64,000 nt of DNA from assembly GCA_963837925.1 (NCBI GenBank), contig CAWIPK010000007.1, positions 81,124 through 145,123 on the forward strand, in the 5' to 3' direction. The notes beneath the pieces were generated by a model, which was not told the origin of the DNA, made no database searches, and saw only the letters and a program-made list of their open reading frames with translations. This stretch comes from an uncultured Chloroflexia bacterium. Lineage in GTDB: Bacteria; Chloroflexota; Anaerolineae; CG2-30-64-16. A program made the position numbers and the translations under genes. Positions 10,057 to 59,579 of this stretch are shown one piece after another (positions within the stretch are counted from its first letter, which is position 1; the number at the start of each line of letters is the position of its first letter).

Positions 10057-10076
10057 ACGAGCAGTATAATCCCCAT

Positions 10077-10105
10077 TTGACACTTTCTCAACCCCGTGCT
10101 ATACA
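10077..10105 (+). promoter_or_regulatory. Sigma70-type promoter for the his leader/operon (TTGACA, 17-nt spacer, TATACA)
   Basis: -35 TTGACA at 10077-10082, a 17-nt spacer, and -10 TATACA at 10100-10105. It sits in the dinB/hisZ divergent intergenic region. Confidence 0.5.
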
Positions 10106-10115
10106 TACTCACGTT

Positions 10116-10175
10116 ATGTTTCGATTATTGCTCGGCAAGCATCACCATCGCAGCGCGGGCAGGCGCACGGGATAA
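10116..10175 (+). CDS. Candidate his leader peptide MFRLLLGKHHHRSAGRRTG (19 codons, three consecutive His codons)
   Basis: ATG at 10116, CAT CAC CAT at 10140-10148, TAA at 10173-10175. It lies between the predicted promoter and the terminator directly upstream of hisZ. There is no SD, and the predicted TSS is only a few nt upstream. Confidence 0.5.
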   Translation: MFRLLLGKHHHRSAGRRTG

Positions 10176-10214
10176 GCGGTTCAACCGTTGGCGTCCCAAT
10201 TGTGCTTACCCGGC

Positions 10215-10247
10215 AGGACTAGTTGGCTCAACTAGTCCTTTTTTGTT
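10215..10247 (+). terminator. Rho-independent terminator / attenuator immediately upstream of hisZ
   Basis: AGGACTAGTTG-gct-CAACTAGTCCT perfect stem followed by TTTTTTGTT. It is strand-specific for plus, and there is no upstream plus-strand gene for it to terminate. Confidence 0.8.
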
Positions 10248-10271
10248 AATCATGAGCTGGAACGGAGCCTT

Positions 10272-30696: not shown

Positions 30697-30882
30697 GGGA
30701 GTTGGGCGCGAGGAAGTCGTTTCTGGCCTCCTTCGGGATGATCAGAATGCTTGATGGATGCTTGTAACCGTGACGGGCAAGGCCCACGATTCCCCCTTTG
30801 CGAGAGGAAGCGTGCTAGAAGTTACGGAAGCGGGCGCATTATAGCGAAGGAGAGGTCGCGCGTCAAACGGCGTGCGGCCTGT

Positions 30883-32808
30883 TCAACGGTCCGTCTGGCC
30901 CTCGGCGACTGGCGTCAGCACCAGGCTGCTCCAGGCGGGCAGCACGAAATCGTGCCAGTTCGTGCTCACTCGCACGTGCTCAGTGGAAACGGCATCTTGC
31001 CAATCGCCGTTGCTCGGGAAGCCGAGCCCGACCGGCTGCGGCACGCAGTCGAAATTGAGCGCCACGACGACCACGTCCCCCTCTTCGCTCCAGCGCTTGT
31101 AGCGGAGGACCTTGAAGCGGGCGAAATCGTCCAGGTAGAATTCGATGTGGTCGGAACGCAGGGCAGGATGAGCCCGGCGCAGGGCCAGCAGGCGCCGATA
31201 GAACTCGAGCTGGGCGCGTCCGGCCGGATGCTCGAGCTTCGACCAGTCGAGCGGCCAGAAATCGATGGTGCGCGGGCTGTCGGCGCCGAATTCCTGGCCG
31301 GCAAACAGCATCGGGATGCCCGGCGCGGTCATGAGGAGGGCCAGGCCCAGGCGTGCCTTCTGCATCCCCAGCTCCCAGCGATCAGCCTGAGGCGCCTGGC
31401 CGGCGGCGTCTGGCATGCGCACGTGCTCGGCATAATGCTGCAGCTCGTGCTCCGGGCGCCGCTCGTCGTGGCAGACGACGTAGTTCACCAACTGGTCGGC
31501 GTGGGCAAAGCCCTGGGCGTGGAAGTTTCCCCAGGCGCGCCAGACTTCCTGTCGTTCCCACTGCCAGGTCTGGAACAGGCAGCCTTCCAACACGTGGTGG
31601 AAGGCCCCGTTCCAGACGGCATCTATCGTCGTCTCCTGGATGAGGCGCGCCGCCGTCTTGGCCTGGTTCGTGCCGTGGATCGGCCAATACTCGCCGATCA
31701 GGTAGCAATCGGGGGCCGCGGCGCGTGCGGCCCGGGCGATGGGCGCGATGCCGTAGAACGGGTCGAAGTTATCTCGCAAGGGCTGCCATGGATCGTACTC
31801 CACCCCTCCCAGCCAGTCGAAACGGAAGCCGTCCATGTGATACTCGCGGAGCCAGAAGCGCACGATATCCTGCATGTACGCCAGGGTGTAGGGCGAATGA
31901 TGGTCCCAGTCTACGCCGCCCCAACTGTTGGCATGCCCGTTTTGATGATGATGGAAAAATGGGTTGAGATGCGGCAATTCGCGTCCGTCGGGCGTGAACA
32001 GCGGCGGGTACATACGGTAGTAGGGCTGATCGCCCCAGGCGTGGTTCAGGACCAGATCCAGAATGACCGCAATACCCCGCCGGTGGGCGGCATCGACCAG
32101 CGCGCGCAACTCATGGGGGCGGCCGTAGACCGACTTAGGGGCCATGTAGAAGACGGGATTATAGCCCCACGAGCTATCGCCCGGGAACTCCCCGACCGGC
32201 ATCAGCTCGATCGCGTTGACGCCGAGCGATTGCAGGTGATCGAGCCTGGCGGTCACCCCGGCGAAGCGTCCCAGCCGATCGTTTCCCAGGCCCGGACCAC
32301 CTCGTCGCCCACTGAAGTCGCGCACGCACAGCTCGTAGATGATGAGGTCTTTGCGGGGCGGGCGCTGCCAGGAGCGATCATGCCACTGGAAGGGAGGATC
32401 GTCCGCCAGAACGGCCTTCGGCCCGTAATCGTCCCAGTCGATCTCCACAGCATACGGATCGGCGACGTACACCTGCTTCCCGGATCGATCAATAGTGACC
32501 AGGAACTCGTAGCGCGTGCGGCCGTGGAGCGGAAGGGTGACCTGAAAATGGCCACAGCCGTCGCCCTGCATCGGCGTGGCCTTCGGGTCCCAGCGGTTGA
32601 AATCGCCGACCAGGTGCACGGCAGGCTTGAAGGGGGCGGTCAAGAAGAACGTGGTGGTACCGGGCCGGCAATAGTCACGGTAGGCGCCACCGCGAGGCAG
32701 ATCGGACGTGGAGCGATCGGCGCCGGCAAGCCGGCTGATCCCGGCATTCTGCGGCGAACGGTCACGCGCCGCAGCAGACGACCGCTCGGTTGCCGGCGGT
32801 TGGGTCAT
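30883..32808 (-). CDS. GH13 alpha-amylase-family enzyme with an N-terminal CBM48/E-set domain
   Basis: VGDFNRWD (CBM48), GVNAIELMPV, WGYNP, AVILDLVLNH, DGFRFD, LIGEYW and VVCHDE (GH13 regions I-IV). The start is uncertain, either 32808 or 32892. Confidence 0.85.
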   Translation of the reverse strand: MTQPPATERSSAAARDRSPQNAGISRLAGADRSTSDLPRGGAYRDYCRPGTTTFFLTAPFKPAVHLVGDFNRWDPKATPMQGDGCGHFQVTLPLHGRTRYEFLVTIDRSGKQVYVADPYAVEIDWDDYGPKAVLADDPPFQWHDRSWQRPPRKDLIIYELCVRDFSGRRGGPGLGNDRLGRFAGVTARLDHLQSLGVNAIELMPVGEFPGDSSWGYNPVFYMAPKSVYGRPHELRALVDAAHRRGIAVILDLVLNHAWGDQPYYRMYPPLFTPDGRELPHLNPFFHHHQNGHANSWGGVDWDHHSPYTLAYMQDIVRFWLREYHMDGFRFDWLGGVEYDPWQPLRDNFDPFYGIAPIARAARAAAPDCYLIGEYWPIHGTNQAKTAARLIQETTIDAVWNGAFHHVLEGCLFQTWQWERQEVWRAWGNFHAQGFAHADQLVNYVVCHDERRPEHELQHYAEHVRMPDAAGQAPQADRWELGMQKARLGLALLMTAPGIPMLFAGQEFGADSPRTIDFWPLDWSKLEHPAGRAQLEFYRRLLALRRAHPALRSDHIEFYLDDFARFKVLRYKRWSEEGDVVVVALNFDCVPQPVGLGFPSNGDWQDAVSTEHVRVSTNWHDFVLPAWSSLVLTPVAEGQTDR

Positions 32809-32955
32809 TCGCAATCTGGCAGGACTCCCTTCGACGGTGAAGTCTTGGTCAGGGGGTCCGGCCGCCTGGCCGGACCCGACGCATGATAGCACATGAACCG
32901 ACGCCTGCCCAAAAAACGATATATAGTATTTGTCTCACGAGCGATTGGGGGGCAG

Positions 32956-48578: not shown

Positions 48579-49229
48579 TCAGGTATTCTCCTCCAATAGG
48601 CCGTGTTCCATGGCGTAGTGCACCAACTCGACGCGACTATTGAGTGACAGCTTGCCCATTATGTTGGAACGGTGGCTCTCGACCGTCCGAACGCTAAGGC
48701 AGAGAGATTCGGCAATCTGGCGATTGGTGTTGCCCTGGGCGATCAGACGCAGGACCTCGATCTCACGACGGGTGAGAGCCTTGAGCGAGCCGGCGGTCTG
48801 CGATTCGGCCCCGGCTACGTCCTGAAGCAGCGCACGGGTCATGGCCGGGTGCACGTAAAGATCGCCGTCGGCCACCGAGTGAATGGCGTTGATAAGCTCT
48901 GACTCGACGGCCCGCTTGATGATATAGCCTGCGGCGCCTACCCGGACCGCTTCCTGCAGCAGGCTGTAGTCCTCATGCACGGTCAGAATGAGTACGGCAA
49001 TCTCCGCGTGGCTCTCCTTCAGTTGCTGGGTGACCTCGATACCCGTCAGGCCCGGCATGTTTACGTCCAGCAGCAGCACATCCGGGCGCAAGGTCACCGC
49101 CTGGCGCAACGCCTCGTCGCCGTCCGCAGCCTCCCCGATCACTTCCATGTCGGGTTCGGCATTCAGCAATGAACGCAACCCTGCCCGCAAGACACCGTGA
49201 TCGTCGGCAATGAGAATCCTAATGGGCAT
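48579..49229 (-). CDS. NarL/FixJ-family response regulator (canonical receiver + LuxR HTH)
   Basis: ILIADDHG, DVLLLDVNMPG, LILTVHED, GYIIKRA, and the HTH LTRREIEVLRLIAQGNTNRQIAESLCLSVRTVESHRSNIMGKL. ATG at 49229 follows GGAGG. Confidence 0.9.
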   Translation of the reverse strand: MPIRILIADDHGVLRAGLRSLLNAEPDMEVIGEAADGDEALRQAVTLRPDVLLLDVNMPGLTGIEVTQQLKESHAEIAVLILTVHEDYSLLQEAVRVGAAGYIIKRAVESELINAIHSVADGDLYVHPAMTRALLQDVAGAESQTAGSLKALTRREIEVLRLIAQGNTNRQIAESLCLSVRTVESHRSNIMGKLSLNSRVELVHYAMEHGLLEENT

Positions 49230-49385
49230 CTGGTACCTCCACGGACACCGTCGGGCCTTCATCCAATCGCGAGAACTTCAACCGGCGCCTCTCCGGTGAG
49301 CCAATCTCAAACCCAGTGCAGACAAAGGCCAACCTGCTGCGGATCGTACGAATTATACCACGCATTTAAGGAAAAGCGTTCTTGC

Positions 49386-49414
49386 TTGACAGGTGTCCCC
49401 TTCCCCCCTACAAT
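49386..49414 (+). promoter_or_regulatory. Sigma70-type promoter of lhr (TTGACA, 17-nt spacer, TACAAT)
   Basis: -35 at 49386-49391 and -10 at 49409-49414, with the ATG at 49431. Confidence 0.55.
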
Positions 49415-49430
49415 TTCCTCGAGGAACCCT

Positions 49431-52400
49431 ATGTTCAATCCACTCGACAGTTTTTCGCTGCCTGTACGCACCTGGTTTGAGGAGACGTTCCAGGCGCCGA
49501 CTCCGCCGCAGGCCGAGGGTTGGCCGCCGATCCAGCGTGGCGACCACAGCCTCATCCTGGCCCCGACCGGTTCGGGGAAGACGATCGCCGCCTTTCTGTG
49601 GGGGATCGACCAGATCTACCGCGAGCTGGCGTCCGCCGAGGGTGAGGCAGAAGGTCTGGCAGATCGGCAGGTGGCACGTGAGAAAAGCCGGCCGAGCAGC
49701 GCCGCGGCCAACCGCCCCGGCATCCGAGTGCTCTACGTCTCACCGCTCAAGGCGCTCAATAACGACATCGAGCGCAACCTGCGCGCGCCGTTGGCAGGCA
49801 TCCGGGCGGTCGCGCAGCGCTTGGGCCGGCCTCTACCGCCGCTGCACGTGGCTGTGCGCACGGGCGATACGCCCGGACATGTGCGCCAGCAAATGCTCAA
49901 GCAGCCGCCGCATATCCTGATCACCACTCCCGAATCGCTCTACCTGATGTTGACCAGCCCGCGCGCCCGCGAGATGTTCCGCACCGTTCACACCGTGATC
50001 GTGGACGAAATCCACACCCTGTGCGGGAACAAGCGGGGGGTCCACCTTTCGCTGACTCTCGAGCGTCTCGAACACGAGACTGGCCGGCGCGTGCAGCGGA
50101 TCGGCCTGTCCGCCACGCAAAAGCCCCTGGAAGAAGTCGCACGCTTCTTGGGCGGGCAGGAGTGGGCAGATGACCGGCGTGCGTTGCAGCCGCGTCCCGT
50201 ATCCATCGTCAACACCGGATACCAGAAGGCGCTGGATCTCCAGGTCGTCACGGTGGTCAAGGACTTCCGGGAGATGCCCGGCGACACCATTTGGCCCTCC
50301 GTCGTGGCGCGAGTGCTGAGCGACATCCGCCGGCGGCGCAGCACCCTGGTCTTTGCCAATAACCGGCGCCTGGCCGAAAGGACGGCAGACCGCCTGAACG
50401 CGCAGATCGCGGCGGAGGAGAGCGAAGAGATCCCACCCGGCAGCACCGAGGCGCTGGCTCCCGGCGGGATCGTGCGCGACCGGGGCATGTTTGCCCTGGG
50501 AGCCAAGGGGCCGATCCGGGCGCACCACGGCAGCATGTCGAAAGAAGCGCGCCGGGCGATGGAAGAGGACCTCAAGGCCGGGCGCCTGCCGGCATTGGTC
50601 GGCACGAGTTCGCTCGAGTTAGGGATCGACATCGGCGCGGTCGATCAAGTGGTTCAACTGGGATCACCCAACAGTATTGCTCAGGGTCTGCAGCGCGTCG
50701 GCCGGTCGGGCCACCTGGTGGGCCAGACCAGCGTCGGACGCATCTACGCCACCACCCGCGAGGACCTGGTCGAGGCCGCCGCCGTGGCCCGCGGCATGCT
50801 CGAAGGCGACGTCGAGCCGACCTACACCCCGCAGAACCCTTTGGACGTGCTCGCCCAACAGATCGTGGCGATGGTATCGGTGGAGGAATGGCCGGCGGCG
50901 GCGCTCTTCGACCTGCTGCGCCAAGCCTACGCGTACCATGATCTGTCTCCAGATGCCTACCGGGCAGTGCTCGAGATGCTCAGTGGCAAATACCATCGCG
51001 CCAATGGGCGGGAGGGCGAAGGGGGGGCCGACCTCCTGCCCGGCGCGCTGCGGCCGCGCCTGGCCTGGGACCGGGTCAACGATCGGCTGGCAGCGCTGCC
51101 CGGCTCGCGCTTGCTGGCCATCAGCAACGGCGGCACGATCCCGGATACCGGCCCCTACCGGGTCTATCTGGGCGACGGAAAGACGCGTATCGGCGAGCTG
51201 GACGAGGAATTCGTCTTCGAGACGCGCGTGGGCGACGTGTTCTTGTTAGGCAGCAACACCTGGCGCGTGCTCGACATCCAGGACGACCGGGTGATCGTCG
51301 GCGATGCGAGCGGAGCGGTGCCGCGCATGCCCTTCTGGAACGGAGACTATCCGGGACGTCCCTACGAGTTGGGCCAGCGGATCGGCCGCTTCCGTGGGGA
51401 AGTGTCGGCACGCGTCGGACGAACCGATGCCAAGCTCGACGAGCTGATGCGCTGGCTGCAGCACGACTACGCGCTGGACGAAAACTCAGCCACCAACCTT
51501 CTCGAGCATGTCCGCCGCCAGCTCGATGCGCTGGGCGTTATGTCATCCGATAGCACCATCGTCGCCGAGCTTTTCCACGATGCCCTGGGCGAGCCGCGGC
51601 TGGTGGTACACTCGCCCTTCGGCGGGCGCGTGAACGGCGCCTGGGCGATCGTACTGCGCAGCGCCCTTCAGGAGCGAACGGGCGTCGAGGTTGAGATGCA
51701 GGCCGCCGACGACGGCATGATCTTCCGCTTTCCGAGCCTGGAAGGCCTGCCGCCCGTTGACATCCTCCAGTCGATGACGCCCGCCGAGGCGCGCGAGCGC
51801 CTGCTGCGTGACCTGCCAAACTCGGCGGCGTTCGGAGCACAGTTCCGCATGAACGCCGGACGCGCACTGATGCTGCCGCGCGCACACGGCCATCGCCGCA
51901 CACCCTTCTGGCTGCAGCGCCTGAAGGCAAAAGACCTGCTTGCCGTCGTGCGCAAGTTCAAGGACTTCCCGATTATTGCCGAGACCTATCGTGATTGCCT
52001 GAGGGATGTGTTCGATCTGCCCCACCTCGAGACCGTGCTGGAAGCCATCCAGCAGGGCAGTATCCGGATCAGCGTGATCGAGACCGCCGTGCCATCGCCG
52101 GTCGCCGCCGATCTTTTGTTCGGCTTCATGGAGCAGTACTTGTACGAGTGGGACGCGCCCAAAGCCGAGCGTCAACTGCAAACTCTCTCCGTCCGCCGAG
52201 ACCTGCTGGAGGACCTGTTGGGCAGCGGGGTCGAGCTCAACGAACTGCTGCGGTCGGAGGCGGTGAGCGAAGTAGTAGCCCAGGCCCGTCACACGGCGGA
52301 GGGCTACCAGGCCCGCAGCGTCGAGGAGTTGGCCGTGTTCATGGATGAACTCGGCGACCTGACCGAGAGCGAGATCGCGGCGATCTGCGTCCGGCCTCCA

Positions 52401-54272
52401 GCAGGCGGGACGGCCCAGGCAGATGGGAGCCGGAACGCCCAGGCCGCGGGCTGGCTGCGCCAACTGGCGGATAGGGGACGGTTGCTCAAGCTGGCGGTGG
52501 TCAGTGCGGGCGGGCTTGAGGAACGCTGGCTGGCGACTGAACTAGCCGGCGACTACCTACCCGCAGGGATGGAAATGAGCGCGACGGCTGCCTCCGCGGC
52601 GGATGCCCCGCCCTGCCCAAACCCGGAAGCCATCGTGCGCCGCTATCTGCGCACCAGCGGCCCGGTCACCACGCAAGCGATCGTGGCGCGCTACGCCTTC
52701 CCCAGGGACTGGCTCGACGAGGTGCTTGGCCGGTTGGTAAACGATCGAGCCGTCCTCATGGGCCACTTCACCCCCGGTGGCCCAGCGGGCGCCTGCCCAC
52801 CGCCCTGCGAAGAATACTGCGACCCGGGCCTGCTCGAAAAGATCCACCGTCGCAGCCTGGGCCTGCTGCGCAAGGAGGTCCAGCCCGTTTCTCTGGGCCG
52901 CTACGCTGATTTCCTGGCGCGCTGGCAGCACCTGGGCGAGAACGAAGGGCTGCGCGGCCGCGATGGCCTGCGCACCGTGATGCGGCAACTACAAGGCGTG
53001 GCGGTGCCCGGAACGACTTGGGAAGAGGACGTCCTTCCCGCACGGCTGGTCGACTATGATCCGGCGGCGCTGGACGATCTGTGCCAGAAGGGCGAGCTCG
53101 TGTGGGCCGGCCTGGGTCGCGACCCCCGCCGGGCGCGCTTCCGCTTCCTGCCGCGCGGCGAGGGCGGACTCTTCCTGGGCGAACCGGACGAGGACGGGCT
53201 CAGCGAGAGCGCCCGGCTGGTCTACGCGCAGCTCAAGAGCGAAGGGGCCTCATTCAGCGCCGACCTGGCAGCCGGCACGGGCCTCCGGCCGGCCGCGTTG
53301 GAAGCGGCGCTGGTCGAACTGGTCATGTGCGGGCTGGCAACCAACGATACATTGGGGGTGATGCACTACCTGGCCGAGTCGGGGCGACGACCGGGCGCCG
53401 CGGCCACTGGGACCTTGGCGCCGGATGGCAGCGCGGAGGCAGCGCGACCTGTGCTCAGCTCCCTGGAAGCGGAGTTGGCAGTTCGCCTGCCCCGTTCACG
53501 CCCGCCGTCCCCGGGCCGTCATCGCGGCGCGGCCTGGCGCGGCGCCAAGCGACGCGTCGCCCAGCAGTTGCGCGCCAGCAGCCCTGCCCCCGATCTCGCC
53601 GCAGGCCGCTGGTCATTGATCCATCGGACGGGGGTGTTGGGTCGCCCGCTGCCGGCCGAGGAAAGAGCTGACAGGCTGGCGCGCGTCCTGCTCGAACGCC
53701 ACGGCGTGCTGACACGTGATGCGGTCGAACGCGAGGAACTCGGGGCGGACTGGCCCCTGCTCTACGCACACCTGCAACGGATGGAGATGCGGGGTGACGT
53801 GCGGCGCGGCTACTTCGTGGCCGGGCTGCCTGGTGCCCAGTTCGCCCTGCCCGAGGCGGTGGAAAAGCTCCGCGCCGCCGGAGAGGCAGGCAGCGAGGAC
53901 GCGGGGCCGGTCGTGCTGAACGCGACAGATCCGGCGAACCTGTACGGCTCGCTTGGACCCGCCGCAGCGCAGGGCCAGGCCGGCCCCCACTTCCCCCGCC
54001 TGCCATCCACCCACGTGGTCCTGTCGAACGGCAAGCCGGTTCTGATCGCCGAGGACGGCGGCCAGCGGCTGACGGCCGCGGAGGAAGACGGACCTGAGCT
54101 GCTGAAGCAGGCCGTGGGCGCCTACCTCGATCGGCCGCACGCGCCACGCCACCTGATCGTCAGCCAATGGAATGGCGCGCCCGTGCTCGGCGGTCCGGGA
54201 GAGGCGCTGCTGCAAGAGCTCGGCTTCTATCGCTCGCCGGCCGGCATGGAGTGGTGGGCGCCTCATCTGTAA
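49431..54272 (+). CDS. lhr: Lhr-type large ATP-dependent (DEAH-box) helicase
   Basis: Walker A APTGSGKT, DEIH box, SATQ, HHGSMS and VQLGSP..QRVGRSGH, plus a long Lhr-like C-terminal region. About 1613 aa from the ATG at 49431. Confidence 0.92.
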   Translation: MFNPLDSFSLPVRTWFEETFQAPTPPQAEGWPPIQRGDHSLILAPTGSGKTIAAFLWGIDQIYRELASAEGEAEGLADRQVAREKSRPSSAAANRPGIRVLYVSPLKALNNDIERNLRAPLAGIRAVAQRLGRPLPPLHVAVRTGDTPGHVRQQMLKQPPHILITTPESLYLMLTSPRAREMFRTVHTVIVDEIHTLCGNKRGVHLSLTLERLEHETGRRVQRIGLSATQKPLEEVARFLGGQEWADDRRALQPRPVSIVNTGYQKALDLQVVTVVKDFREMPGDTIWPSVVARVLSDIRRRRSTLVFANNRRLAERTADRLNAQIAAEESEEIPPGSTEALAPGGIVRDRGMFALGAKGPIRAHHGSMSKEARRAMEEDLKAGRLPALVGTSSLELGIDIGAVDQVVQLGSPNSIAQGLQRVGRSGHLVGQTSVGRIYATTREDLVEAAAVARGMLEGDVEPTYTPQNPLDVLAQQIVAMVSVEEWPAAALFDLLRQAYAYHDLSPDAYRAVLEMLSGKYHRANGREGEGGADLLPGALRPRLAWDRVNDRLAALPGSRLLAISNGGTIPDTGPYRVYLGDGKTRIGELDEEFVFETRVGDVFLLGSNTWRVLDIQDDRVIVGDASGAVPRMPFWNGDYPGRPYELGQRIGRFRGEVSARVGRTDAKLDELMRWLQHDYALDENSATNLLEHVRRQLDALGVMSSDSTIVAELFHDALGEPRLVVHSPFGGRVNGAWAIVLRSALQERTGVEVEMQAADDGMIFRFPSLEGLPPVDILQSMTPAEARERLLRDLPNSAAFGAQFRMNAGRALMLPRAHGHRRTPFWLQRLKAKDLLAVVRKFKDFPIIAETYRDCLRDVFDLPHLETVLEAIQQGSIRISVIETAVPSPVAADLLFGFMEQYLYEWDAPKAERQLQTLSVRRDLLEDLLGSGVELNELLRSEAVSEVVAQARHTAEGYQARSVEELAVFMDELGDLTESEIAAICVRPPAGGTAQADGSRNAQAAGWLRQLADRGRLLKLAVVSAGGLEERWLATELAGDYLPAGMEMSATAASAADAPPCPNPEAIVRRYLRTSGPVTTQAIVARYAFPRDWLDEVLGRLVNDRAVLMGHFTPGGPAGACPPPCEEYCDPGLLEKIHRRSLGLLRKEVQPVSLGRYADFLARWQHLGENEGLRGRDGLRTVMRQLQGVAVPGTTWEEDVLPARLVDYDPAALDDLCQKGELVWAGLGRDPRRARFRFLPRGEGGLFLGEPDEDGLSESARLVYAQLKSEGASFSADLAAGTGLRPAALEAALVELVMCGLATNDTLGVMHYLAESGRRPGAAATGTLAPDGSAEAARPVLSSLEAELAVRLPRSRPPSPGRHRGAAWRGAKRRVAQQLRASSPAPDLAAGRWSLIHRTGVLGRPLPAEERADRLARVLLERHGVLTRDAVEREELGADWPLLYAHLQRMEMRGDVRRGYFVAGLPGAQFALPEAVEKLRAAGEAGSEDAGPVVLNATDPANLYGSLGPAAAQGQAGPHFPRLPSTHVVLSNGKPVLIAEDGGQRLTAAEEDGPELLKQAVGAYLDRPHAPRHLIVSQWNGAPVLGGPGEALLQELGFYRSPAGMEWWAPHL

Positions 54273-54345
54273 TTGAGCAATTCGTCCAGGATCCGTTCTT
54301 TCAGGATCGGCCGGCGGCGGGATATAATGCGGGCGGAGGAGAAGA

Positions 54346-56145
54346 ATGGCTGTCATCAAGCGCCTCGCCGGCTACCTTGGGCCTTATTGGAAGACTCTCA
54401 TCGTCACCTGCGTGCTGCTGGTGCTGAACATCGCCTTAAGCCTGCTGCCGCCGCTCTTCCAACGCCAGATCATCGATCAGGTGATCGGTCGCCAGGCCCT
54501 GAGCAGCCTGCTGGCCCTGGTCGGTGGGTTGATCGCCGTCTATGGCCTCACCGCGCTGACCGAGTTCGGCGACCAGTACCTGCGTCACACCCTGGGCGAG
54601 CGCTTCATCTGCGACCTGCGGGTGCGCCTCTACAGTCACCTTCAGCGGCTCTCGCTGTCATACTTCGGGCGCACATCGACAGGCGAGCTGATGTCGCGTG
54701 TTACCAACGACGTCAATGCCCTCGAACAATTCGTGACGCATGGTGTGGTGCTGACTGCGATCGACGGCCTGCGCCTGCTGGGCTCGGCGGCGGTGCTGCT
54801 CGTGCTCGATTGGCGCCTGGCACTGGTGACCTTCCTGCCGATACCGATCGTGGCCTACGGGCTGCGCCGCTATAACCGGCGCGCGCGACCCATCTATCGT
54901 CAGGTGCGGCGGCGACTGGCCGACATCAACGCCAAGTTGCAGGACAACCTGGCCGGGATCCGGGTGGTGCAGGCCTTCGGGCAGGAAGGATCGGAGCTCG
55001 GGCGCTTCAGCAACGTGAGCGAGAATTACTTCCAGGAGCGCGTGGGTGTGATCCGCGCCTGGTCAACCTTCTTCCCGGCGCTGGGCTTCGTCTCGACGGC
55101 CGGTGGCTCCCTGCTGCTCGGCGCCGGCGCCTACATGGTGGTCAAAGGCCAGGTGTCTCTGGGCACCCTGGTGGCCTTTCTCTCTTATTCGACCTTTCTC
55201 TACGATCCCTTGCGCCGCCTGACCGAGATCGACAATATCCTCCAGGAGGCGATCGCGGCCGGAGAGCGCATCTTCGAAATGATCGACGAAGTACCTGAAA
55301 TCAAGGATGCGCCGGACGCGGTCGCGCTGGAGCGGGTCCAGGGCGATGTCGTCTTTGAGGACGTGCACTTTCGCTACGAGAGTGATGGATGGCCGGCGGG
55401 CGTCGACGCAGCGGTGGCCGCGGCGCGCAGCGAGGAAGTGCTGCACGACATCGAGTTCCACATGCAACCGGGTGAGGTGGTCGCCCTGGTGGGGCCCAGC
55501 GGGGCCGGCAAGACCAGCATCGCCAGCCTGCTCTGCCGCTTTTACGACCCGACCCACGGCCGCATCCTGGTCGACGGTTACGATCTGCGCACGCTGCAGT
55601 TGACCTCGCTGCGCCGGCACGTGGCCGTCGTGCTGCAGGACACCTTTCTGTTCAATGCCAGCGTGCGCGAGAACCTGCTCTACGGCAAGCCGGACGCCAG
55701 CGAGGCCGAACTGGTGGCGGCGGCCAGGGCGGCCTACGCGCACGATTTTATCAGCCAGATGCCGCGAGGCTACGACACAGAGATTGGAGAGCGGGGCGTG
55801 AAGTTGAGCGGGGGCCAGCGGCAGCGACTGGCTCTGGCGCGCGCCATTTTGGCAGACCCGCGCATCCTGATCCTCGACGAGGCAACGTCCTCCGTGGACG
55901 CCGAGGCAGAGTACCTGATCCAACAGGCGCTCGAACGGGTGATGATCGGCCGCACGTCGCTTGTCATCGCCCACCGGCTCAGCACCGTCCGCAACGCCGA
56001 CAAGATCATCGCTGTCGACGAGGGTCGCATTCGTGAGATCGGCAACCACGAAGAGCTATTGAATCGCGGCGGCCTCTACAGCCAGCTCTACCAGCGGCAG
56101 CTGGAGTTGGCCGCCACGGGATTGGACCAGGCGACCCTGAACTGA
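54346..56145 (+). CDS. ABC exporter, fused permease/ATPase (MsbA/multidrug type)
   Basis: Six-helix TMD followed by an NBD with GPSGAGKTS, LSGGQRQRLALARA and ILILDEATSSVD. Confidence 0.92.
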   Translation: MAVIKRLAGYLGPYWKTLIVTCVLLVLNIALSLLPPLFQRQIIDQVIGRQALSSLLALVGGLIAVYGLTALTEFGDQYLRHTLGERFICDLRVRLYSHLQRLSLSYFGRTSTGELMSRVTNDVNALEQFVTHGVVLTAIDGLRLLGSAAVLLVLDWRLALVTFLPIPIVAYGLRRYNRRARPIYRQVRRRLADINAKLQDNLAGIRVVQAFGQEGSELGRFSNVSENYFQERVGVIRAWSTFFPALGFVSTAGGSLLLGAGAYMVVKGQVSLGTLVAFLSYSTFLYDPLRRLTEIDNILQEAIAAGERIFEMIDEVPEIKDAPDAVALERVQGDVVFEDVHFRYESDGWPAGVDAAVAAARSEEVLHDIEFHMQPGEVVALVGPSGAGKTSIASLLCRFYDPTHGRILVDGYDLRTLQLTSLRRHVAVVLQDTFLFNASVRENLLYGKPDASEAELVAAARAAYAHDFISQMPRGYDTEIGERGVKLSGGQRQRLALARAILADPRILILDEATSSVDAEAEYLIQQALERVMIGRTSLVIAHRLSTVRNADKIIAVDEGRIREIGNHEELLNRGGLYSQLYQRQLELAATGLDQATLN

Positions 56146-56856: not shown

Positions 56857-56980
56857 CAGATGTCTGCTCCCGGTTAGTCCGGCTGCTATTCTTTGCCAAA
56901 GGCAGTTTCCCGGCTAGCGTACTGACCGTGCGGAAACCGCAGCTATTATACGCTCCGAATAGCATGGCTGAAAGAATGAC

Positions 56981-57015
56981 AAAAAGGCTGAAGGGCCCGA
57001 ATTTGCCCTTCAGCC
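56981..57015 (-). terminator. Rho-independent terminator of the Rad52-like gene
   Basis: On the minus strand, GGCTGAAGGGC-aaattcgg-GCCCTTCAGCC followed by TTTTTG, about 40 nt after the stop at 57056. Confidence 0.85.
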
Positions 57016-57055
57016 TTAGGTTCTCCGTCTCCCTGCTTCCCGCTGGCCGCTCGCC

Positions 57056-58378
57056 CTAACCTCTGGCTACCTGGCGCACTTCTTGGCCGTTGCAGTAGCC
57101 AGTCGAGGCAGCGTCGCCGCCGTCGATCTTGTGGAGCAGGAGGGCCTTGCCCTCGCGCGTGACGAGCAGTTGCAGGGGCACATTGTGGATCGGGCACAGC
57201 ACGGGTCCCTCGCCCTCGTCAATTTCGGCTGACGTCGCCAGGGCGCCGCTTGCCGGCGCGAGCTGGGCACCATCCTCGGCTGCCGCGACCGCCAGGTGCG
57301 CGGCTTTGCCGGCCGCTGCTCCCTCGGCCGCTCGCCTGCGGGACGGACTTCGGGGAGCTTCGCGGCGTGTCTCGCCCGTCGTCGAGACGCTCGCCTGCTT
57401 TGGGCCGCTCGCCTCGCCCGCGGGCTGCCCATCGCGGGGGGCGGGGGATGCCGGTTCGGGGCCCGACCGTTCGTCGGGCTGCGGCGCCGCTCGTTCGGCG
57501 GCCGCCGGCCGGCTGTCCCGCGCGCCGGCGTCTGGCTGTGCTTCCGCGGGCGGCCGTCCGGCGCCCTCAGACGCCTGCCGCGACTGAACCGCCTCGCCGG
57601 CGCGCCCCGCCGAATGCGCCGCGCCGTCCTCGTCGCGGTGACTGCCCGGCGCGGCCGCGCTGGGCGCCTGGCCCGCCGCCGGACCTGGGGTCGCTCCTGA
57701 ATGGCTGGGCGACCGTCGCAGGTCGCCCGACCCACCGGCTAGGGCCGGCCGTGCGCCGCCCGCGGCCGGCGGCCGGCTGTGGCCGTTCGTACCCGCGCGG
57801 GCAAACAGGGCCTGACCGTTAGCCTCCGGCCGGACCGGGGGGGCCGCACCGGCGGTCCGGCCCTCGACCGCTGCGGTCACGCCAAGGCGGCGCAGCAAGT
57901 TTTCCAGCTTCTTGAGCTCCACCTCAGGGATGCCTCGATCGGCGTCAAAGTCCACCCAGGGCTTAGGCAGGTCGTACAGGTAGCGTCCCAGCCCGAAGGC
58001 CGCACACGCTCGCTTGAAAGCCTGCGCCTTGGCGCTCGTCAGAGCATTGTCGTCAGTCAGCTCGCACTCCCCGACATCGCTGCGTGTGCGCTCGGCAATC
58101 GTCAGGCGGCACTTGACGAAGACCTTCCCCGAAATGACGCGCTTCTCACCGCCCCGCCCCAGCGCCTCCTGGGGGTCCGAGAACCAGATCGCGTAATCAT
58201 CCTGCCACTCGGGGCAAACCTGATCCAGGCGCTCCTGGTACGGTTGCGTATCGACGTAGGGCACGGCCAGGCAGCGCTTGCGCTCCCGACTGATCGTCTG
58301 CGGTTTCCAGGCAACAACCTCGACCGAAAATGGGACCCTCAACCCATCCAGAACTTGTTCCCAGTTCGTGGTGTCCAT
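57056..58378 (-). CDS. Rad52/Rad22-family single-strand annealing protein (DdrA-like) with a long low-complexity tail and a small Cys/His C-terminal module
   Basis: The N-terminal ~190 aa contain VAWKPQT..CLAVPYVD..YQERLDQVCP and SAKAQAFKRACAAFGLGRYLYDLPKPWVDFD, the signature I associate with Rad52/DdrA. About 190 aa of Pro/Ala/Gly/Arg-rich sequence follow, then CPIH..HK..CNG. ATG at 58378 follows AAGGAG. Confidence 0.65.
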   Translation of the reverse strand: MDTTNWEQVLDGLRVPFSVEVVAWKPQTISRERKRCLAVPYVDTQPYQERLDQVCPEWQDDYAIWFSDPQEALGRGGEKRVISGKVFVKCRLTIAERTRSDVGECELTDDNALTSAKAQAFKRACAAFGLGRYLYDLPKPWVDFDADRGIPEVELKKLENLLRRLGVTAAVEGRTAGAAPPVRPEANGQALFARAGTNGHSRPPAAGGARPALAGGSGDLRRSPSHSGATPGPAAGQAPSAAAPGSHRDEDGAAHSAGRAGEAVQSRQASEGAGRPPAEAQPDAGARDSRPAAAERAAPQPDERSGPEPASPAPRDGQPAGEASGPKQASVSTTGETRREAPRSPSRRRAAEGAAAGKAAHLAVAAAEDGAQLAPASGALATSAEIDEGEGPVLCPIHNVPLQLLVTREGKALLLHKIDGGDAASTGYCNGQEVRQVARG

Positions 58379-58416: not shown

Positions 58417-58430
58417 CGAACATACGTTCT
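58417..58430. promoter_or_regulatory. Candidate LexA (SOS/Cheo-type) box CGAACATACGTTCT
   Basis: It matches 13 of 14 positions of CGAACRNRYGTTYC (GAAC-N4-GTTC palindrome). It directly abuts the -10 element of the Rad52-like gene. Confidence 0.55.
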
Positions 58431-58439
58431 ATTATAGCA
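58431..58439 (-). promoter_or_regulatory. Extended -10 element TGcTATAAT of the Rad52-like gene
   Basis: The reverse complement of 58431-58439 reads TGCTATAAT, about 55 nt upstream of the ATG. Confidence 0.5.
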
Positions 58440-58571
58440 CACCTGTCAAGCCAGCACAAACTATCAAAGAGGCAATTCAAGGCCTGGGCACCGTTCCCTG
58501 CTGCCCGCATCCTGTGCGCTTTTTGCTGTCACGACTACTGAAGCCGAGCCGTGAATGGGGATACTAGGAGC

Positions 58572-59579
58572 ATGGCCGACAAAATAGCAGGCATCCATCA
58601 CGTGACGGCGATCGCCGGCGACCCGCAGCGCAACGTCGACTTCTACACGGGAGTGATCGGGCTGCGCCTGGTGAAAGTAACCGTCAACTTCGACGACCCG
58701 GGTACCTACCACCTCTACTATGGAGACGGCGAGGGACGTCCGGGCACGGTCTTGACCTTCTTTCCCTGGCCGGAGGGCGCGCAGGGCCGCAATGGCCCGG
58801 GACAGGCGACGATCGTCTCGTTTGCCGTGCCCCTGGCCGGGCTGCAGTTCTGGGCCGAGAGGCTGGAAGACTTCGATATCAGTTACGAAGGACCGATCGC
58901 CCGCTTTGGTGACCGTGTCCTCACTTTTGTTGACCATGACGGGCTGCAGATCGAGTTGGTCGGCCGGCGCAGATTGGTCGGCGACGGCGAGCGTTTTGGC
59001 GCCGTGCCGCCTCAATACGCGGTGCAGGGCATCTGTGGGATTACGCTGCTGCAAGAGGAATTGGCGCCGACCGACCGGATGCTGACCGGGCCGCTGGGCT
59101 TTCGTGCGGCCGATCAGGTGGGCAACCGCTACCGCTACACGAGCAGCCACGACGACCCGGGAAGCTTCGTCGACATATTGGTGGTGCCGGGCATGCTGCC
59201 GGGCCGGGTCGCGGTGGGCACCGTGCATCACGTGGCCTGGCGCACTCCGACCGATGGCACCCAGCAGGGTTGGCGTGAAGAGTTGCTGCGACGGCAAGAG
59301 CGCGTCACCCCGGTGCAGGACCGCCAATACTTCCGCTCGATCTATTTCCGTGAACCAGGCGGGGTGCTGTTCGAGATCGCCACCGACGGGCCCGGCTTCA
59401 CCGTGGATGAGGCGGCCGATAAGCTCGGCTCCGGCCTTAGGCTGCCGGCCTGGCTGGAACCGCGGCGCGCAGCCATCCAGGGCGCCCTACCCGCCCTGCG
59501 CCTGCCCACCCCGACGGCCGCGCTCGTTAGCACCCCCGACTTAGTGCAGATAAGCGCAGGGGCGGCAGGCACGCCATAG
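58572..59579 (+). CDS. Ring-cleaving dioxygenase / glyoxalase (VOC) family protein, two-domain type
   Basis: GIHHVTAIAGDPQRNVDFYTGVIGLRLVK..NFDDPGTYHLYYGD and a second module VHHVAWR. AGGAG RBS before the ATG at 58572. Confidence 0.8.
   Translation: MADKIAGIHHVTAIAGDPQRNVDFYTGVIGLRLVKVTVNFDDPGTYHLYYGDGEGRPGTVLTFFPWPEGAQGRNGPGQATIVSFAVPLAGLQFWAERLEDFDISYEGPIARFGDRVLTFVDHDGLQIELVGRRRLVGDGERFGAVPPQYAVQGICGITLLQEELAPTDRMLTGPLGFRAADQVGNRYRYTSSHDDPGSFVDILVVPGMLPGRVAVGTVHHVAWRTPTDGTQQGWREELLRRQERVTPVQDRQYFRSIYFREPGGVLFEIATDGPGFTVDEAADKLGSGLRLPAWLEPRRAAIQGALPALRLPTPTAALVSTPDLVQISAGAAGTP

What the first reader, a model, noticed from the sequence alone, without database searches (positions are those of the whole stretch)
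57056..58378. Chromosomal Rad52/DdrA-like single-strand annealing protein with an unusual architecture
The N-terminal ~190 aa carry what I recognise as the Rad52/Rad22 (PF04098) annealing-domain signature. In particular, ...SAKAQAFKRACAAFGLGRYLYDLPKPWVDFD closely resembles, from memory, the equivalent segment of Deinococcus DdrA. Unlike phage SSAPs, this gene has no phage neighbours. It has its own promoter and a strong intrinsic terminator. The domain is fused to about 190 aa of Pro/Ala/Gly/Arg/Ser-rich, probably disordered sequence and a separate C-terminal module. Cellular (non-phage) bacterial Rad52-family proteins are rare and, outside Deinococcus, poorly studied. It also lies 2.8 kb from an Lhr helicase gene.
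Basis: partly seen in the sequence, partly recalled or inferred. Interest (0 to 1): 0.7.

Follow-up and report, generated by a model that had tools for sequence, protein, structure and literature searches.

The report
SOS-boxed chromosomal Rad52/DdrA-like annealing protein
A Chloroflexota (Anaerolineales) chromosome carries a conserved Rad52/DdrA-type DNA-repair gene that sits behind a predicted DNA-damage (LexA) operator and ends in an unannotated four-ligand, zinc-knuckle-like module also found on other annealing proteins.

Summary
Window 57056-58378 (- strand) encodes a 440-aa protein. Residues 1-175 form a confident Rad52-fold domain: Pfam PF04098 scores 35 bits against a cut-off of 20, the top Foldseek hit is phage 80alpha Sak, and the domain is 40% identical to authentic Deinococcus DdrA. 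Residues 176-392 are an Ala/Gly/Pro/Arg/Ser-rich disordered linker. Residues 393-440 are a small all-beta module.

The gene is cellular, not prophage. From 27 to 64 kb the window holds only housekeeping genes. The gene order glyoxalase-Rad52-(ABC-Lhr) recurs in seven other Anaerolineales loci. The Rad52 domain (81-93% identity) is at least as conserved as its neighbours.

- The only GAAC-N4-GTTC palindrome (the B. subtilis-type LexA box) in the 64 kb lies directly after the extended -10 of this gene. It is at the same place in all eight orthologous loci, with a variable spacer. The gene is therefore probably SOS-inducible.
- The C-terminal module has exactly four invariant residues (C395, H398, H416, C429). 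It matches nothing in Pfam, NCBIfam, PHROGs or the PDB. It recurs on ERF- and Rad52-type annealing proteins and on many tiny proteins.

Verdict: a new variant of a known kind, of moderate interest.

The parts
57056..58378 (-). Coding sequence of the 440-aa Rad52/DdrA-like protein (stop codon 57056-57058)
   Evidence: ORF. Full-length homologues are 49-60% identical. Orthologous loci: L001-L003 and L020-L023.
57854..58378 (-). N-terminal Rad52-fold ssDNA-binding/annealing domain (residues 1-175), including the invariant K122-R123 in the AFKRA helix
   Evidence: PF04098 at 35.3 bits. pLDDT is above 95 with a strand-strand-strand-helix core. Top Foldseek PDB hit is 80alpha Sak, probability 1.0. 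28 viral SSAP-like hits. 40% identity to DdrA. 81-93% identity among orthologues. The invariant residues are listed.
57203..57853 (-). Disordered Ala/Gly/Pro/Arg/Ser-rich linker (residues 176-392)
   Evidence: pLDDT below 50. Composition. Only about 38% identity, with indels, among orthologues whose flanking domains are 85-93% identical.
57059..57202 (-). C-terminal CHHC module (residues 393-440). The candidate metal ligands are C395, H398, H416 and C429, followed by N430-G431
   Evidence: These four residues are the only invariant columns across 35 diverse copies. The AF2 model of the module alone has pLDDT 85.6 and is all-beta. 52 representatives at E<=1e-3 among 1.84 billion proteins. No Pfam, NCBIfam or PHROG family matched in the module-bearing proteins scanned. 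No significant PDB fold match.
58431..58459 (-). Promoter: -35 TTGTGC (58459-58454), 17-nt spacer, extended -10 TGcTATAAT (58439-58431)
   Evidence: Read. The TTG of the -35 is invariant in the four aligned loci, and the -10 is TATAAT in three of them and TAGAAT in L001. The consensus scan did not call it because the -35 matches only 3 of 6 positions.
58417..58430 (-). Palindrome AGAACGTATGTTCG, a GAAC-N4-GTTC (LexA/Cheo-type) operator candidate that starts at the base after the -10 hexamer
   Evidence: It is the only exact GAAC-N4-GTTC in the 64 kb. Exactly one copy sits at -51 or -42 from the ATG in all eight orthologous loci, with invariant arms and a variable spacer. The consensus is cited in PMC4234289.
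58389..58394 (-). Shine-Dalgarno AAGGAG, 10 nt before the ATG at 58378
   Evidence: invariant in the orthologues.
56974..57017 (-). Intrinsic terminator: 13-bp stem, 8-nt loop and a U-rich tail, 39 nt after the stop codon
   Evidence: RNA fold of -27.2 kcal/mol, z = -4.2, with 0 of 200 shuffles folding as well.

Best explanation
This is a domesticated cellular member of the bacterial/phage Rad52 (Sak/DdrA-like) single-strand annealing protein family, kept in the chromosome of an Anaerolineales (Chloroflexota) lineage as a DNA-damage-inducible repair factor.

**Proposed mechanism**
1. In undamaged cells LexA sits on the GAAC-N4-GTTC palindrome, which begins right after the -10 hexamer, and blocks transcription. 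RecA-stimulated LexA cleavage after DNA damage releases it. This step is inferred from operator sequence, position and conservation.
2. The N-terminal domain assembles into Rad52-type oligomers and binds ssDNA in a basic groove that includes K122/R123. There it protects resected 3' tails, as DdrA does, and/or anneals complementary strands for RecA-independent break repair. The fold and the conserved residues are shown. The activity is inferred from the family.
3. The roughly 217-aa disordered linker acts as a flexible tether (inferred).
4. The C-terminal 40-aa CHHC module is a zinc-stabilised knob that targets the protein to a partner protein or a DNA structure. It occupies the position where related Rad52-like proteins carry other small adaptor tips (ExoX-like_C, CxxC zinc ribbon, SSB-like acidic IPF tails). 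The four invariant ligands, the compact fold and the recurrence on ERF and Rad52 annealing proteins are shown. Zinc binding and the target are inferred.
For: **Rad52 membership**
- PF04098 scores above its gathering threshold, and PHROG 1097 matches at E 5.5e-22.
- The AF2 model has pLDDT above 95 for residues 1-170.
- Top Foldseek PDB hits are phage 80alpha Sak entries 8pq8/8qe9, probability 1.0. In the viral library 28 hits reach E<=1e-3; the named ones include Rad52/22, SAK3 and ERF proteins.
- BLASTP gives 40% identity to authentic DdrA, E about 1e-28.
- K122, R123, G131, R132, Y133, L134 and Y135 are invariant in 62 homologues. hhalign places K122/R123 on human RAD52 K152/R153 (the RAD52 sequence was checked against 1H2I/1KN0).

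**Cellular and vertically inherited**
- The window from 27 to 64 kb holds SDH, ICDH, aconitase, thioredoxin, Lhr, an ABC exporter, a HAD phosphatase, a glyoxalase and TreS. There is no tRNA or integrase signal.
- The divergent glyoxalase neighbour occurs in all seven other orthologous loci, and ABC-Lhr downstream in five of them (L002, L020-L022, and ABC only in L023, where the contig ends).
- N-domain identity among orthologues is 81-93%. The neighbours score 66-77% (glyoxalase, full-length matches), 62-81% (Lhr) and 55-91% (ABC).
- No relative was found in the IMG/VR pattern scan. Only one distant phage hit exists, at 37%, in Thermus phage MN1.

**SOS control**
- The palindrome is the unique GAAC-N4-GTTC in the window. 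The chance expectation is 0.52 per 64 kb, or about 5e-4 for a 60-nt promoter region.
- It lies 1-5 nt after the -10 in all eight orthologous loci, with spacers GTAT, AAAT, AGAT and ATAA. A 45%-identical Chloroflexia homologue (L006) has the same layout, TTGACA-17-TATAAA followed by AGAACAGGAGTTCA.
- No exact box lies within about 250-300 nt upstream of any of the 23 more distant homologues checked, several of them in mobile elements.
- GAACN4GTTC is the B. subtilis SOS box (PMC4234289).

**C-terminal module**
- C, H, H and C are the only invariant columns in 35 diverse copies.
- The model has pLDDT 85.6.
- The module is fused to ERF proteins (P0089, P0091), other Rad52-like proteins (P0104, P0013) and an HTH_36 protein, and it occurs in tandem copies.
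- Relatives carry alternative C-terminal tips.
- SSAP C-termini are known partner-binding regions (Redbeta CTD with lambda Exo and SSB, PMC6393309, listed).
Against: - No biochemical or expression data exist for any member of this clade.
- DdrA, the closest characterised relative, showed no annealing activity in vitro (PMC515370), so annealing is not guaranteed.
- I could not verify that this lineage's LexA recognises GAAC-N4-GTTC. No lexA, recA or uvrA promoter of these genomes was available. The supporting Dehalococcoides LexA paper (Fernandez de Henestrosa et al. 2002, J Bacteriol) is cited from my own knowledge and could not be retrieved.
- Five of the eight loci with the box (L003, L020-L023) are close relatives, so the independent observations are about four lineages plus L006.
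- Sequence and profile searches against the PDB found no Rad52 or Sak chain, and the hhalign probability to human RAD52 is only 8.6%. The link to solved Rad52 structures therefore rests on the Pfam model and the predicted fold.
- The CHHC module has no significant structural match (best Foldseek E = 2), and metal binding is untested.
- Genomic contexts of stand-alone CHHC proteins are mixed and not clearly repair-related.
Confidence: 0.6

Rival explanations
1. The gene is a leftover phage or mobile-element recombinase (a cryptic-prophage remnant) with no host function. Its apparent chromosomal setting would then be an old insertion that has lost its neighbours.
For: The family is mainly mobile. 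P0012 (63% identical in the N-domain) sits among small co-directional ORFs with an HNH endonuclease. P0053 lies in a T4SS/relaxase element. P0022 lies among small ORFs next to BREX genes. The best PHROG hit is a phage SSAP family. Thermus phage MN1 encodes a 37%-identical recombination protein beside an exonuclease.
Against: The locus is the same in eight loci from about four lineages. The N-domain is conserved at least as well as the housekeeping neighbours (81-93% against 55-91%). The reading frame is intact except in one error-prone assembly (L002). The gene has its own conserved promoter, operator, Shine-Dalgarno sequence and terminator. There is no exonuclease, integrase, tRNA or other phage gene within 30 kb.
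Confidence: 0.08
2. The protein acts purely as a DdrA-type ssDNA 3'-end protection factor, with no annealing activity. It would cap resected ends against exonucleases until RecA-dependent repair resumes.
For: It is 40% identical to DdrA, including the GRYLYDLPK motif. DdrA binds 3' ssDNA ends, protects them from exonuclease I, and showed no annealing in vitro (PMC515370). Like ddrA, it is a stand-alone gene with no partner exonuclease and shows a damage-inducible signature.
Against: DdrA is not its nearest relative. Dozens of non-Deinococcus homologues are as close or closer, at 35-63%. The fold matches the 80alpha Sak annealing protein best. The regions C-terminal to the Rad52 core are unrelated to DdrA. 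The negative annealing result for DdrA may reflect assay conditions, as its authors state.
Confidence: 0.22
3. The palindrome next to the -10 is not a LexA site. It would be the operator of another regulator, or a conserved promoter or 5'-UTR element, and the gene would not belong to the SOS response.
For: LexA binding was not tested. The whole promoter and 5'-UTR is highly conserved among the closest orthologues, so conservation there is not specific to the box. One exact match in 64 kb is itself not unusual (42 of 100 shuffles have at least one).
Against: The arms are invariant while the 4-nt spacer varies. The box keeps its position relative to the -10 in the diverged L001 and L006 promoters, whose flanks do not align. 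The sequence matches the B. subtilis-type box in 13 of 14 positions of CGAACRNRYGTTCG (that consensus is from my own knowledge; the GAACN4GTTC core is in PMC4234289). The function of the gene fits an SOS regulon.
Confidence: 0.2

Closest known systems
DdrA of Deinococcus (DR_0423), a cellular Rad52-family ssDNA 3'-end-protection protein
   Same: The Rad52-type N-domain is 40% identical over about 145 aa and shares the FG(L/I)GRYLYDLPK-W motif. Both are stand-alone chromosomal genes with no phage partners. Both have a (predicted) DNA-damage-inducible setting.
   Different: DdrA is about 200 aa, with a different helical C-terminal region and no long disordered linker or CHHC module. From my own knowledge it is confined to Deinococcus and controlled by the DdrO/PprI system. 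This gene carries a LexA-type box instead. DdrA is not the nearest relative.
Phage Rad52-like SSAPs of the Sak family (Staphylococcus phage 80alpha Sak, PDB 8pq8/8qe9; lactococcal Sak/Sak3)
   Same: It is the best structural match to the N-domain (Foldseek E 1.2e-3, probability 1.0, TM 0.63 on the target). SAK3 and Rad52/22 phage proteins appear among the viral fold hits. PHROG 1097 also matches.
   Different: Only 13-15% sequence identity. Those genes lie in phage recombination modules. This one is a vertically inherited host gene with an operator, a 217-aa linker and a CHHC tip.
Human/yeast RAD52 N-terminal domain (PDB 1KN0, 1H2I) and Mgm101
   Same: Same Pfam family. The AFKRA helix aligns with human GLKRALRSFG, so K122/R123 correspond to K152/R153. 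From my own knowledge these are the inner ssDNA-groove residues of RAD52.
   Different: Very remote in sequence (hhalign probability 8.6%; no phmmer or hmmsearch hit to PDB chains). The eukaryotic C-terminal RPA/RAD51-binding region is absent. Ring stoichiometry is unknown.
Redbeta/RecT C-terminal partner-binding domains (Redbeta CTD with lambda Exo and SSB; PMC6393309)
   Same: The logic is the same: an annealing core followed by a separate C-terminal element that recruits partners. Relatives of this protein even end in SSB-like IPF tails or ExoX-like_C motifs.
   Different: There is no sequence or fold relationship. The CHHC module is a roughly 40-aa all-beta putative metal knuckle, and its partner is unknown.

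Membership tests
Rad52/Rad22 superfamily (PF04098) single-strand annealing proteins | Match to the family profile above the curated threshold | tested here: met
   PF04098 at 35.3 bits against a gathering score of 20.3, residues 11-142 on model positions 7-142 of 153. 62 of the 65 homologues carry the precomputed PF04098 hit.
Rad52/Rad22 superfamily (PF04098) single-strand annealing proteins | Strand-strand-strand-helix core fold resembling solved Rad52-like SSAPs | tested here: met
   AF2 gives pLDDT above 95, with strands 59-67, 85-94 and 97-106 followed by helix 112-126. Top Foldseek PDB hits are 80alpha Sak at probability 1.0. Rad52/SAK3/ERF proteins appear among the viral hits.
Rad52/Rad22 superfamily (PF04098) single-strand annealing proteins | Conserved basic pair on the DNA-groove helix (human K152/R153) | tested here: met
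   K122 and R123 are invariant in 62 homologues and align with human K152/R153. That alignment is statistically weak (probability 8.6%, E 0.0039).
Rad52/Rad22 superfamily (PF04098) single-strand annealing proteins | Oligomeric ring assembly and ssDNA annealing activity | not testable with these tools
   No multimer prediction or biochemistry was available.
DdrA (Deinococcus DNA damage response A) | Specific sequence similarity to authentic DdrA | tested here: met
   40% identity over 143-147 aa, E 1e-27 to 4e-29, against P0116 and P0124 (the latter named 'single-stranded DNA-binding protein DdrA' by NCBI).
DdrA (Deinococcus DNA damage response A) | DdrA architecture: about 200 aa with the DdrA-type C-terminal region. 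Orthology rather than mere family membership | tested here: not met
   The alignment ends at residue 153, and nothing beyond it aligns. No DdrA is listed among the 65 hits, 52 of which are non-orthologue homologues at 28-64% identity (that search scored only 8,000 word-sharing candidates). NCBIfam has no model that matches even authentic DdrA, so no equivalog test was possible.
DdrA (Deinococcus DNA damage response A) | Radiation/desiccation response motif and DdrO/PprI control; 3'-end protection | not tested
   The RDRM was not searched for. A LexA-type palindrome occupies the operator position instead. The activity is not testable here.
Phage/prophage SSAP recombination module | Location in a phage or mobile element, usually next to an exonuclease and/or SSB | tested here: not met
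   The neighbours are a HAD phosphatase, an ABC exporter, Lhr, a glyoxalase and TreS. Gene order is shared with seven other loci. No IMG/VR relative was found.
LexA (SOS) regulon of the GAAC-N4-GTTC type | Palindromic box overlapping the promoter and conserved in orthologues | tested here: met
   AGAACGTATGTTCG lies at 58430-58417, directly after TATAAT, and is unique in the window. It is present in 8 of 8 orthologous loci and in L006.
LexA (SOS) regulon of the GAAC-N4-GTTC type | The organism's LexA binds this motif, and the gene is induced by DNA damage | not testable with these tools
   No lexA or recA promoter of these genomes was at hand. The Chloroflexi LexA literature could not be retrieved.
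Zinc knuckle/ribbon mini-domains | Four invariant Cys/His ligands in a compact fold | tested here: met
   C395, H398, H416 and C429 are the only invariant columns in 35 diverse copies. The model has pLDDT 85.6 with four short strands.
Zinc knuckle/ribbon mini-domains | Membership of a described zinc-finger family | tested here: not met
   No Pfam, NCBIfam or PHROG hit over the module in this protein or in about 45 other module-bearing proteins. The best PDB fold match has E = 2.

The most novel reading that the evidence does not exclude
An Anaerolineales lineage has captured a phage-type Rad52 annealing protein and placed it under LexA control, which would add a RecA-independent annealing or end-protection arm to the SOS response.

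Its disordered tether ends in a previously undescribed CHHC zinc-knuckle domain. That domain would be a portable targeting module shared by unrelated annealing-protein families (Rad52-like, ERF), by replication/HTH proteins and by a large set of tiny orphan proteins. It would define a new interaction hub for bacterial and phage recombination.
Probability: 0.35. Interest if true: 0.7.

Novelty: new variant of a known kind. Interest (0 to 1): 0.55.

Why it matters
Cellular bacterial Rad52-family proteins have been studied essentially only through Deinococcus DdrA, whose mechanism is still unclear.

- A second, independently domesticated lineage with a readable regulatory signal (a LexA-type operator) would show that Rad52-type annealing or end protection has been recruited into bacterial damage responses more than once. 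It would also provide a comparison for DdrA.
- The CHHC module is a small domain that no library scanned here recognises. It recurs on two annealing-protein families and on many orphan mini-proteins. Finding its ligand could reveal how annealing proteins are targeted, which matters for host range in recombineering tools.
- The protein is a candidate annealing protein for genetic tools in Chloroflexota, a phylum with few of them.

Tried and rejected
**Alternative start codon**
- The longer 484-aa ORF starting at 58510 was rejected. That ATG lies upstream of the conserved promoter, and the orthologues align only from the promoter onward.

**Searches that found nothing useful**
- Direct sequence search and profile search against PDB chains found no Rad52 or Sak chain, only spurious hits.
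- NCBIfam gave nothing for this protein and nothing for authentic DdrA, so it holds no usable DdrA model.
- A look-up of the window's own protein in the assembly index found no record.
- The pattern scan of IMG/VR for relatives found none. The module alignment was too variable for a viral scan.
- Rfam and tRNA scans of the window were empty.
- Literature searches for the Chloroflexi LexA motif failed.

**Lhr as a functional partner**
- Considered and set aside. The Lhr-ABC pair is syntenic only among the closer relatives and is separated by a 7-kb insertion in L002. It is absent within 10 kb in L001. No box lies upstream of Lhr.

**Contexts of stand-alone CHHC proteins**
- They were heterogeneous: a defence-like island, a umuDC-like/RNR neighbourhood and a large helicase. 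No conclusion was drawn.

**Long proteins among the module hits**
- The long multi-stretch proteins (P0066, P0074, P0077, P0096-98) were not inspected individually and were left out of the motif analysis. The FG-GAP, RT_RNaseH and TcdB domains found among the 47 scanned members may belong to them, and their module matches may be repeat artefacts.
Full report
**1. The gene**

The ORF listing shows one long - strand ORF ending at 57056. An upstream in-frame ATG at 58510 would give 484 aa.

The 58378 start is the real one. It is preceded by AAGGAG (58394-58389). The last 18 nt before and including the ATG are invariant in four orthologous loci. The upstream ATG lies beyond the promoter.

A 13-bp GC-rich hairpin with a U-tail lies 39 nt after the stop codon (57017-56984). 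It folds at -27.2 kcal/mol, z = -4.2 against shuffles. The downstream HAD gene has its own TATAAT, so the Rad52-like gene is monocistronic.

**2. The N-terminal domain**

- Pfam PF04098 Rad52_Rad22 matches residues 11-142 at 35.3 bits (cut-off 20.3).
- PHROG 1097 ('Erf-like ssDNA annealing protein') matches at E 5.5e-22.
- An AlphaFold2 model built on 62 homologues gives pLDDT above 95 for residues 1-170. It has the strand-strand-strand-helix core and an extra helix at 152-175.
- The top four Foldseek PDB hits are the Sak annealing protein of staphylococcal phage 80alpha (8pq8, 8qe9; probability 1.0, TM 0.63 on the target).
- Against predicted viral structures, 28 hits reach E<=1e-3. The named ones include Rad52/22, SAK3 and ERF proteins.
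- Sequence-only searches of the PDB found nothing, so the tie to solved structures rests on the profile and the fold.
- In 62 homologues, K122, R123, G131, R132, Y133, L134, Y135 and W141 are invariant. A profile alignment puts AFKRACAAFG on human RAD52 GLKRALRSFG, so K122/R123 fall on K152/R153. That alignment has low probability.

**3. The DdrA claim**

The database returned authentic Deinococcus proteins, several of them named 'single-stranded DNA-binding protein DdrA' by NCBI.

The resemblance is therefore real. But the alignment stops at residue 153, and the C-terminal parts are unrelated. Many non-Deinococcus homologues are equally close or closer. The protein is DdrA-like, not a DdrA orthologue.

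DdrA binds ssDNA 3' ends and shields them from exonuclease I. No annealing was detected in vitro (PMC515370).

**4. Cellular or phage?**

All ORFs with a Pfam match from 27 to 64 kb are housekeeping genes, and one further ORF (30751-32886) had no match. They include succinate dehydrogenase subunits, isocitrate dehydrogenase, aconitase, a thioredoxin-TPR protein, oxidoreductases, an aminotransferase and a response regulator. Next come Lhr, an ABC exporter, a HAD sugar phosphatase, the Rad52-like gene, a two-domain glyoxalase/VOC protein, TreS-Mak and a GT9 glycosyltransferase. The window has no tRNA and no Rfam hit.

The nearest named genome is an Anaerolineales MAG.

Orthologues were found in seven other loci: L001-L003 and L020-L023.
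- All seven have the divergent glyoxalase gene next door.
- L020-L022 also have ABC-Lhr directly downstream. L023 has ABC before its contig ends. L002 has ABC-Lhr with a 7-kb insertion. L001 does not have the pair within 10 kb.

Amino-acid identity to the window:

| Region | Identity |
|---|---|
| Rad52 domain | 93% (L003, L020, L021, L023), 93% (L022), 92% (L002), 81% (L001) |
| CHHC module | 62-91% |
| Linker | about 38%, with indels |
| Glyoxalase | 66-77% (full-length matches) |
| Lhr | 62-81% |
| ABC exporter | 55-91% |
| TreS | 56-87% by segment |

The domain is thus under at least as much constraint as its neighbours, and the linker evolves freely.

More distant homologues, in contrast, are mobile:
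- P0012 (63% identical in the N-domain, no CHHC module) lies in a phage-like array of small ORFs with an HNH endonuclease.
- P0053 lies in a T4SS/relaxase element.
- P0022 lies among small ORFs beside BREX genes.
- The only hit in 50,697 phage genomes is the recombination protein of Thermus phage MN1, at 37% identity, next to an exonuclease.

The simplest history is capture of a mobile-element annealing protein, followed by vertical inheritance in this Anaerolineales clade.

**5. Promoter and operator (new)**

On the gene strand the upstream region reads TTGTGC, then 17 nt, then TGcTATAAT, then AGAACGTATGTTCG. The consensus scanner missed it because the -35 matches only 3 of 6 positions. The TTG of the -35 is invariant in the four aligned loci. 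The -10 is TATAAT in three of them and TAGAAT in L001.

The 14-mer contains GAAC-N4-GTTC, the B. subtilis-type SOS box (PMC4234289).
- It is the only exact match in the 64-kb window, where 0.52 are expected by chance.
- The two one-mismatch matches of the 14-mer both lie inside coding regions.
- Every orthologous locus has exactly one exact box. It lies at -51 (window, L002, L003, L020-L023) or -42 (L001) from the ATG, and 1-5 nt after the -10.
- The arms are invariant and the spacer varies: GTAT, AAAT, AGAT, ATAA.
- A 45%-identical homologue in a Chloroflexia MAG (L006) has TTGACA-17-TATAAA followed by AGAACAGGAGTTCA. There the gene is followed by a canonical ssb.
- None of the 23 more distant homologues checked has an exact box within about 250-300 nt upstream.

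I infer LexA repression by promoter occlusion. That Chloroflexi LexA uses this motif is from my own knowledge (Fernandez de Henestrosa et al. 2002, J Bacteriol 184:6073) and could not be verified here.

**6. The linker**

Residues 176-392 are Ala 27%, Gly 14%, Pro 12%, Arg 10% and Ser 9%. The model gives pLDDT below 50. Length varies widely among orthologues, which are 300-496 aa in total. A few short patches are kept, for example EANGQ and a basic RRE-PRS-RKK stretch.

**7. The C-terminal module (new)**

Residues 393-440 read ...LCPIHNVPLQLLVTREGKALLLHKIDGG..GYCNGQEV. An HMM of nine copies, searched against 1.84 billion representative proteins, found 52 proteins at E<=1e-3.

The general form is CPxHxVxM-x4-K(D/E)Gx2WYSH(K/R)x3Gx(W/Y/F)CxGK. 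In 35 diverse copies the only invariant columns are C, H, H and C, which are C395, H398, H416 and C429 here. Modelled alone, the module is confident (pLDDT 85.6) and all-beta. It has no significant PDB match (best E = 2).

No Pfam, NCBIfam or PHROG model covers it.

Where the module occurs:
- behind a low-complexity linker at the C-terminus of ERF-family annealing proteins (P0089, P0091);
- on other Rad52-like proteins (P0104, P0013);
- on an HTH_36 protein and on a phrog_19042 relative;
- at the N-terminus of some proteins;
- in tandem pairs (P0071, P0088);
- in many proteins of 60-170 aa, several of which seem by eye to begin with a short, similar N-terminal stretch; no structure was predicted for them.

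One of these small proteins (P0067) carries the Anaerolineales-type 'LLLH' variant. The lineage therefore uses the same module on at least two proteins.

Other members of the Rad52-like family carry different tips at the same position: ExoX-like_C (PF20600), a CxxC...CxxC ribbon, or SSB-like acidic ...D(D/E)IPF ends. Since C-termini of annealing proteins are known partner-binding elements (PMC6393309), the most economical reading is a metal-stabilised targeting module. Its ligand is unknown.

**8. Verdict**

The protein is a member of the Rad52 superfamily. It is DdrA-like but not a DdrA orthologue, and it is not part of a phage module.

The three new elements are the conserved LexA-type operator, the vertically inherited chromosomal locus in Anaerolineales, and the unannotated CHHC module shared with other annealing proteins. 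Bacterial PF04098 proteins longer than DdrA have been noted before in metagenomes, without characterisation (PMC10140301). I rate this a new variant of a known kind, with interest about 0.55.

Noticed in passing
Homologues P0025, P0038, P0048 (tails ...DFDEIPF / ...DDDIPF); P0029, P0034-37, P0039, P0040 (CPKCGG...C..C ribbon followed by ...VPF); P0014, P0019, P0022 (PF20600 ExoX-like_C): Relatives of this Rad52-like domain end in interchangeable small C-terminal tips. These include acidic IPF tails that look like the SSB C-terminal peptide. This suggests modular swapping of partner-recruiting ends within one annealing-protein family.
   Followed up: partly
L006:9780-11357: In a Chloroflexia MAG a 271-aa Rad52-like gene (9974-10789, with a C-terminus that by eye resembles the ExoX-like_C-type tails of P0014/P0019) is followed directly by a canonical ssb (10935-11357, ending EEIPF). 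It is preceded by TTGACA-17-TATAAA and then AGAACAGGAGTTCA. This looks like a second cellular, LexA-boxed Rad52-SSB pair in the phylum.
   Followed up: partly
window 58551-59579 (+) and its orthologues in L001-L003, L020-L023: A 342-aa glyoxalase/bleomycin-resistance/dioxygenase-superfamily gene is transcribed divergently from the Rad52-like gene in every orthologous locus, across a shared intergenic region of about 170 bp. It is unclear whether it shares the operator or relates to DNA-damaging compounds. NCBIfam gives no specific assignment.
   Followed up: partly
window 49197-56145 (+); L020-L022, L002: A 1,691-aa Lhr helicase gene is followed 73 nt later, on the same strand, by an ABC exporter gene. 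The pair converges on the Rad52-like gene and is kept in that arrangement in the closer relatives. In L020-L022 only the ABC gene separates Lhr from the Rad52-like gene.
   Followed up: partly
P0067 (153 aa, metagenomic): A small protein with a distinct N-terminal stretch, a low-complexity linker and a CHHC module that closely resembles this gene's module, sharing the 'LLLH' variant seen in the Anaerolineales orthologues. The same module therefore serves at least two proteins. Its genomic location could not be looked up.
   Followed up: no
L018:4250-8264: A stand-alone 87-aa CHHC protein (P0283) lies near a 204-aa Peptidase_S24 protein (LexA/UmuD-like), split IMS (Y-family polymerase) genes, an S1-P1 nuclease and a ribonucleotide reductase small subunit. 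This may be a damage-response neighbourhood. Two other contexts looked like defence or island regions.
   Followed up: partly
L024 and L025 (contig SPLK01000018.1, 13-20 kb and 66-73 kb): Two places on one 106-kb metagenomic contig give identical match statistics to the query (45% identity, residues 4-148, E 1e-32). This is as expected for a repeated mobile element.
   Followed up: no
L002 (contig_39191): The orthologous gene and most of its neighbours (TreS, ABC, Lhr, PFK) are broken into many short called genes, and the CHHC module lies in another frame downstream of the truncated P0007. This looks like frameshift errors in a long-read assembly rather than pseudogenes.
   Followed up: partly
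window 58506-58518 (+): A weak terminator-like hairpin (5-bp stem followed by CTTTTTGCTG) lies on the + strand within the shared intergenic region, just upstream of the glyoxalase start. It is probably a chance match.
   Followed up: no
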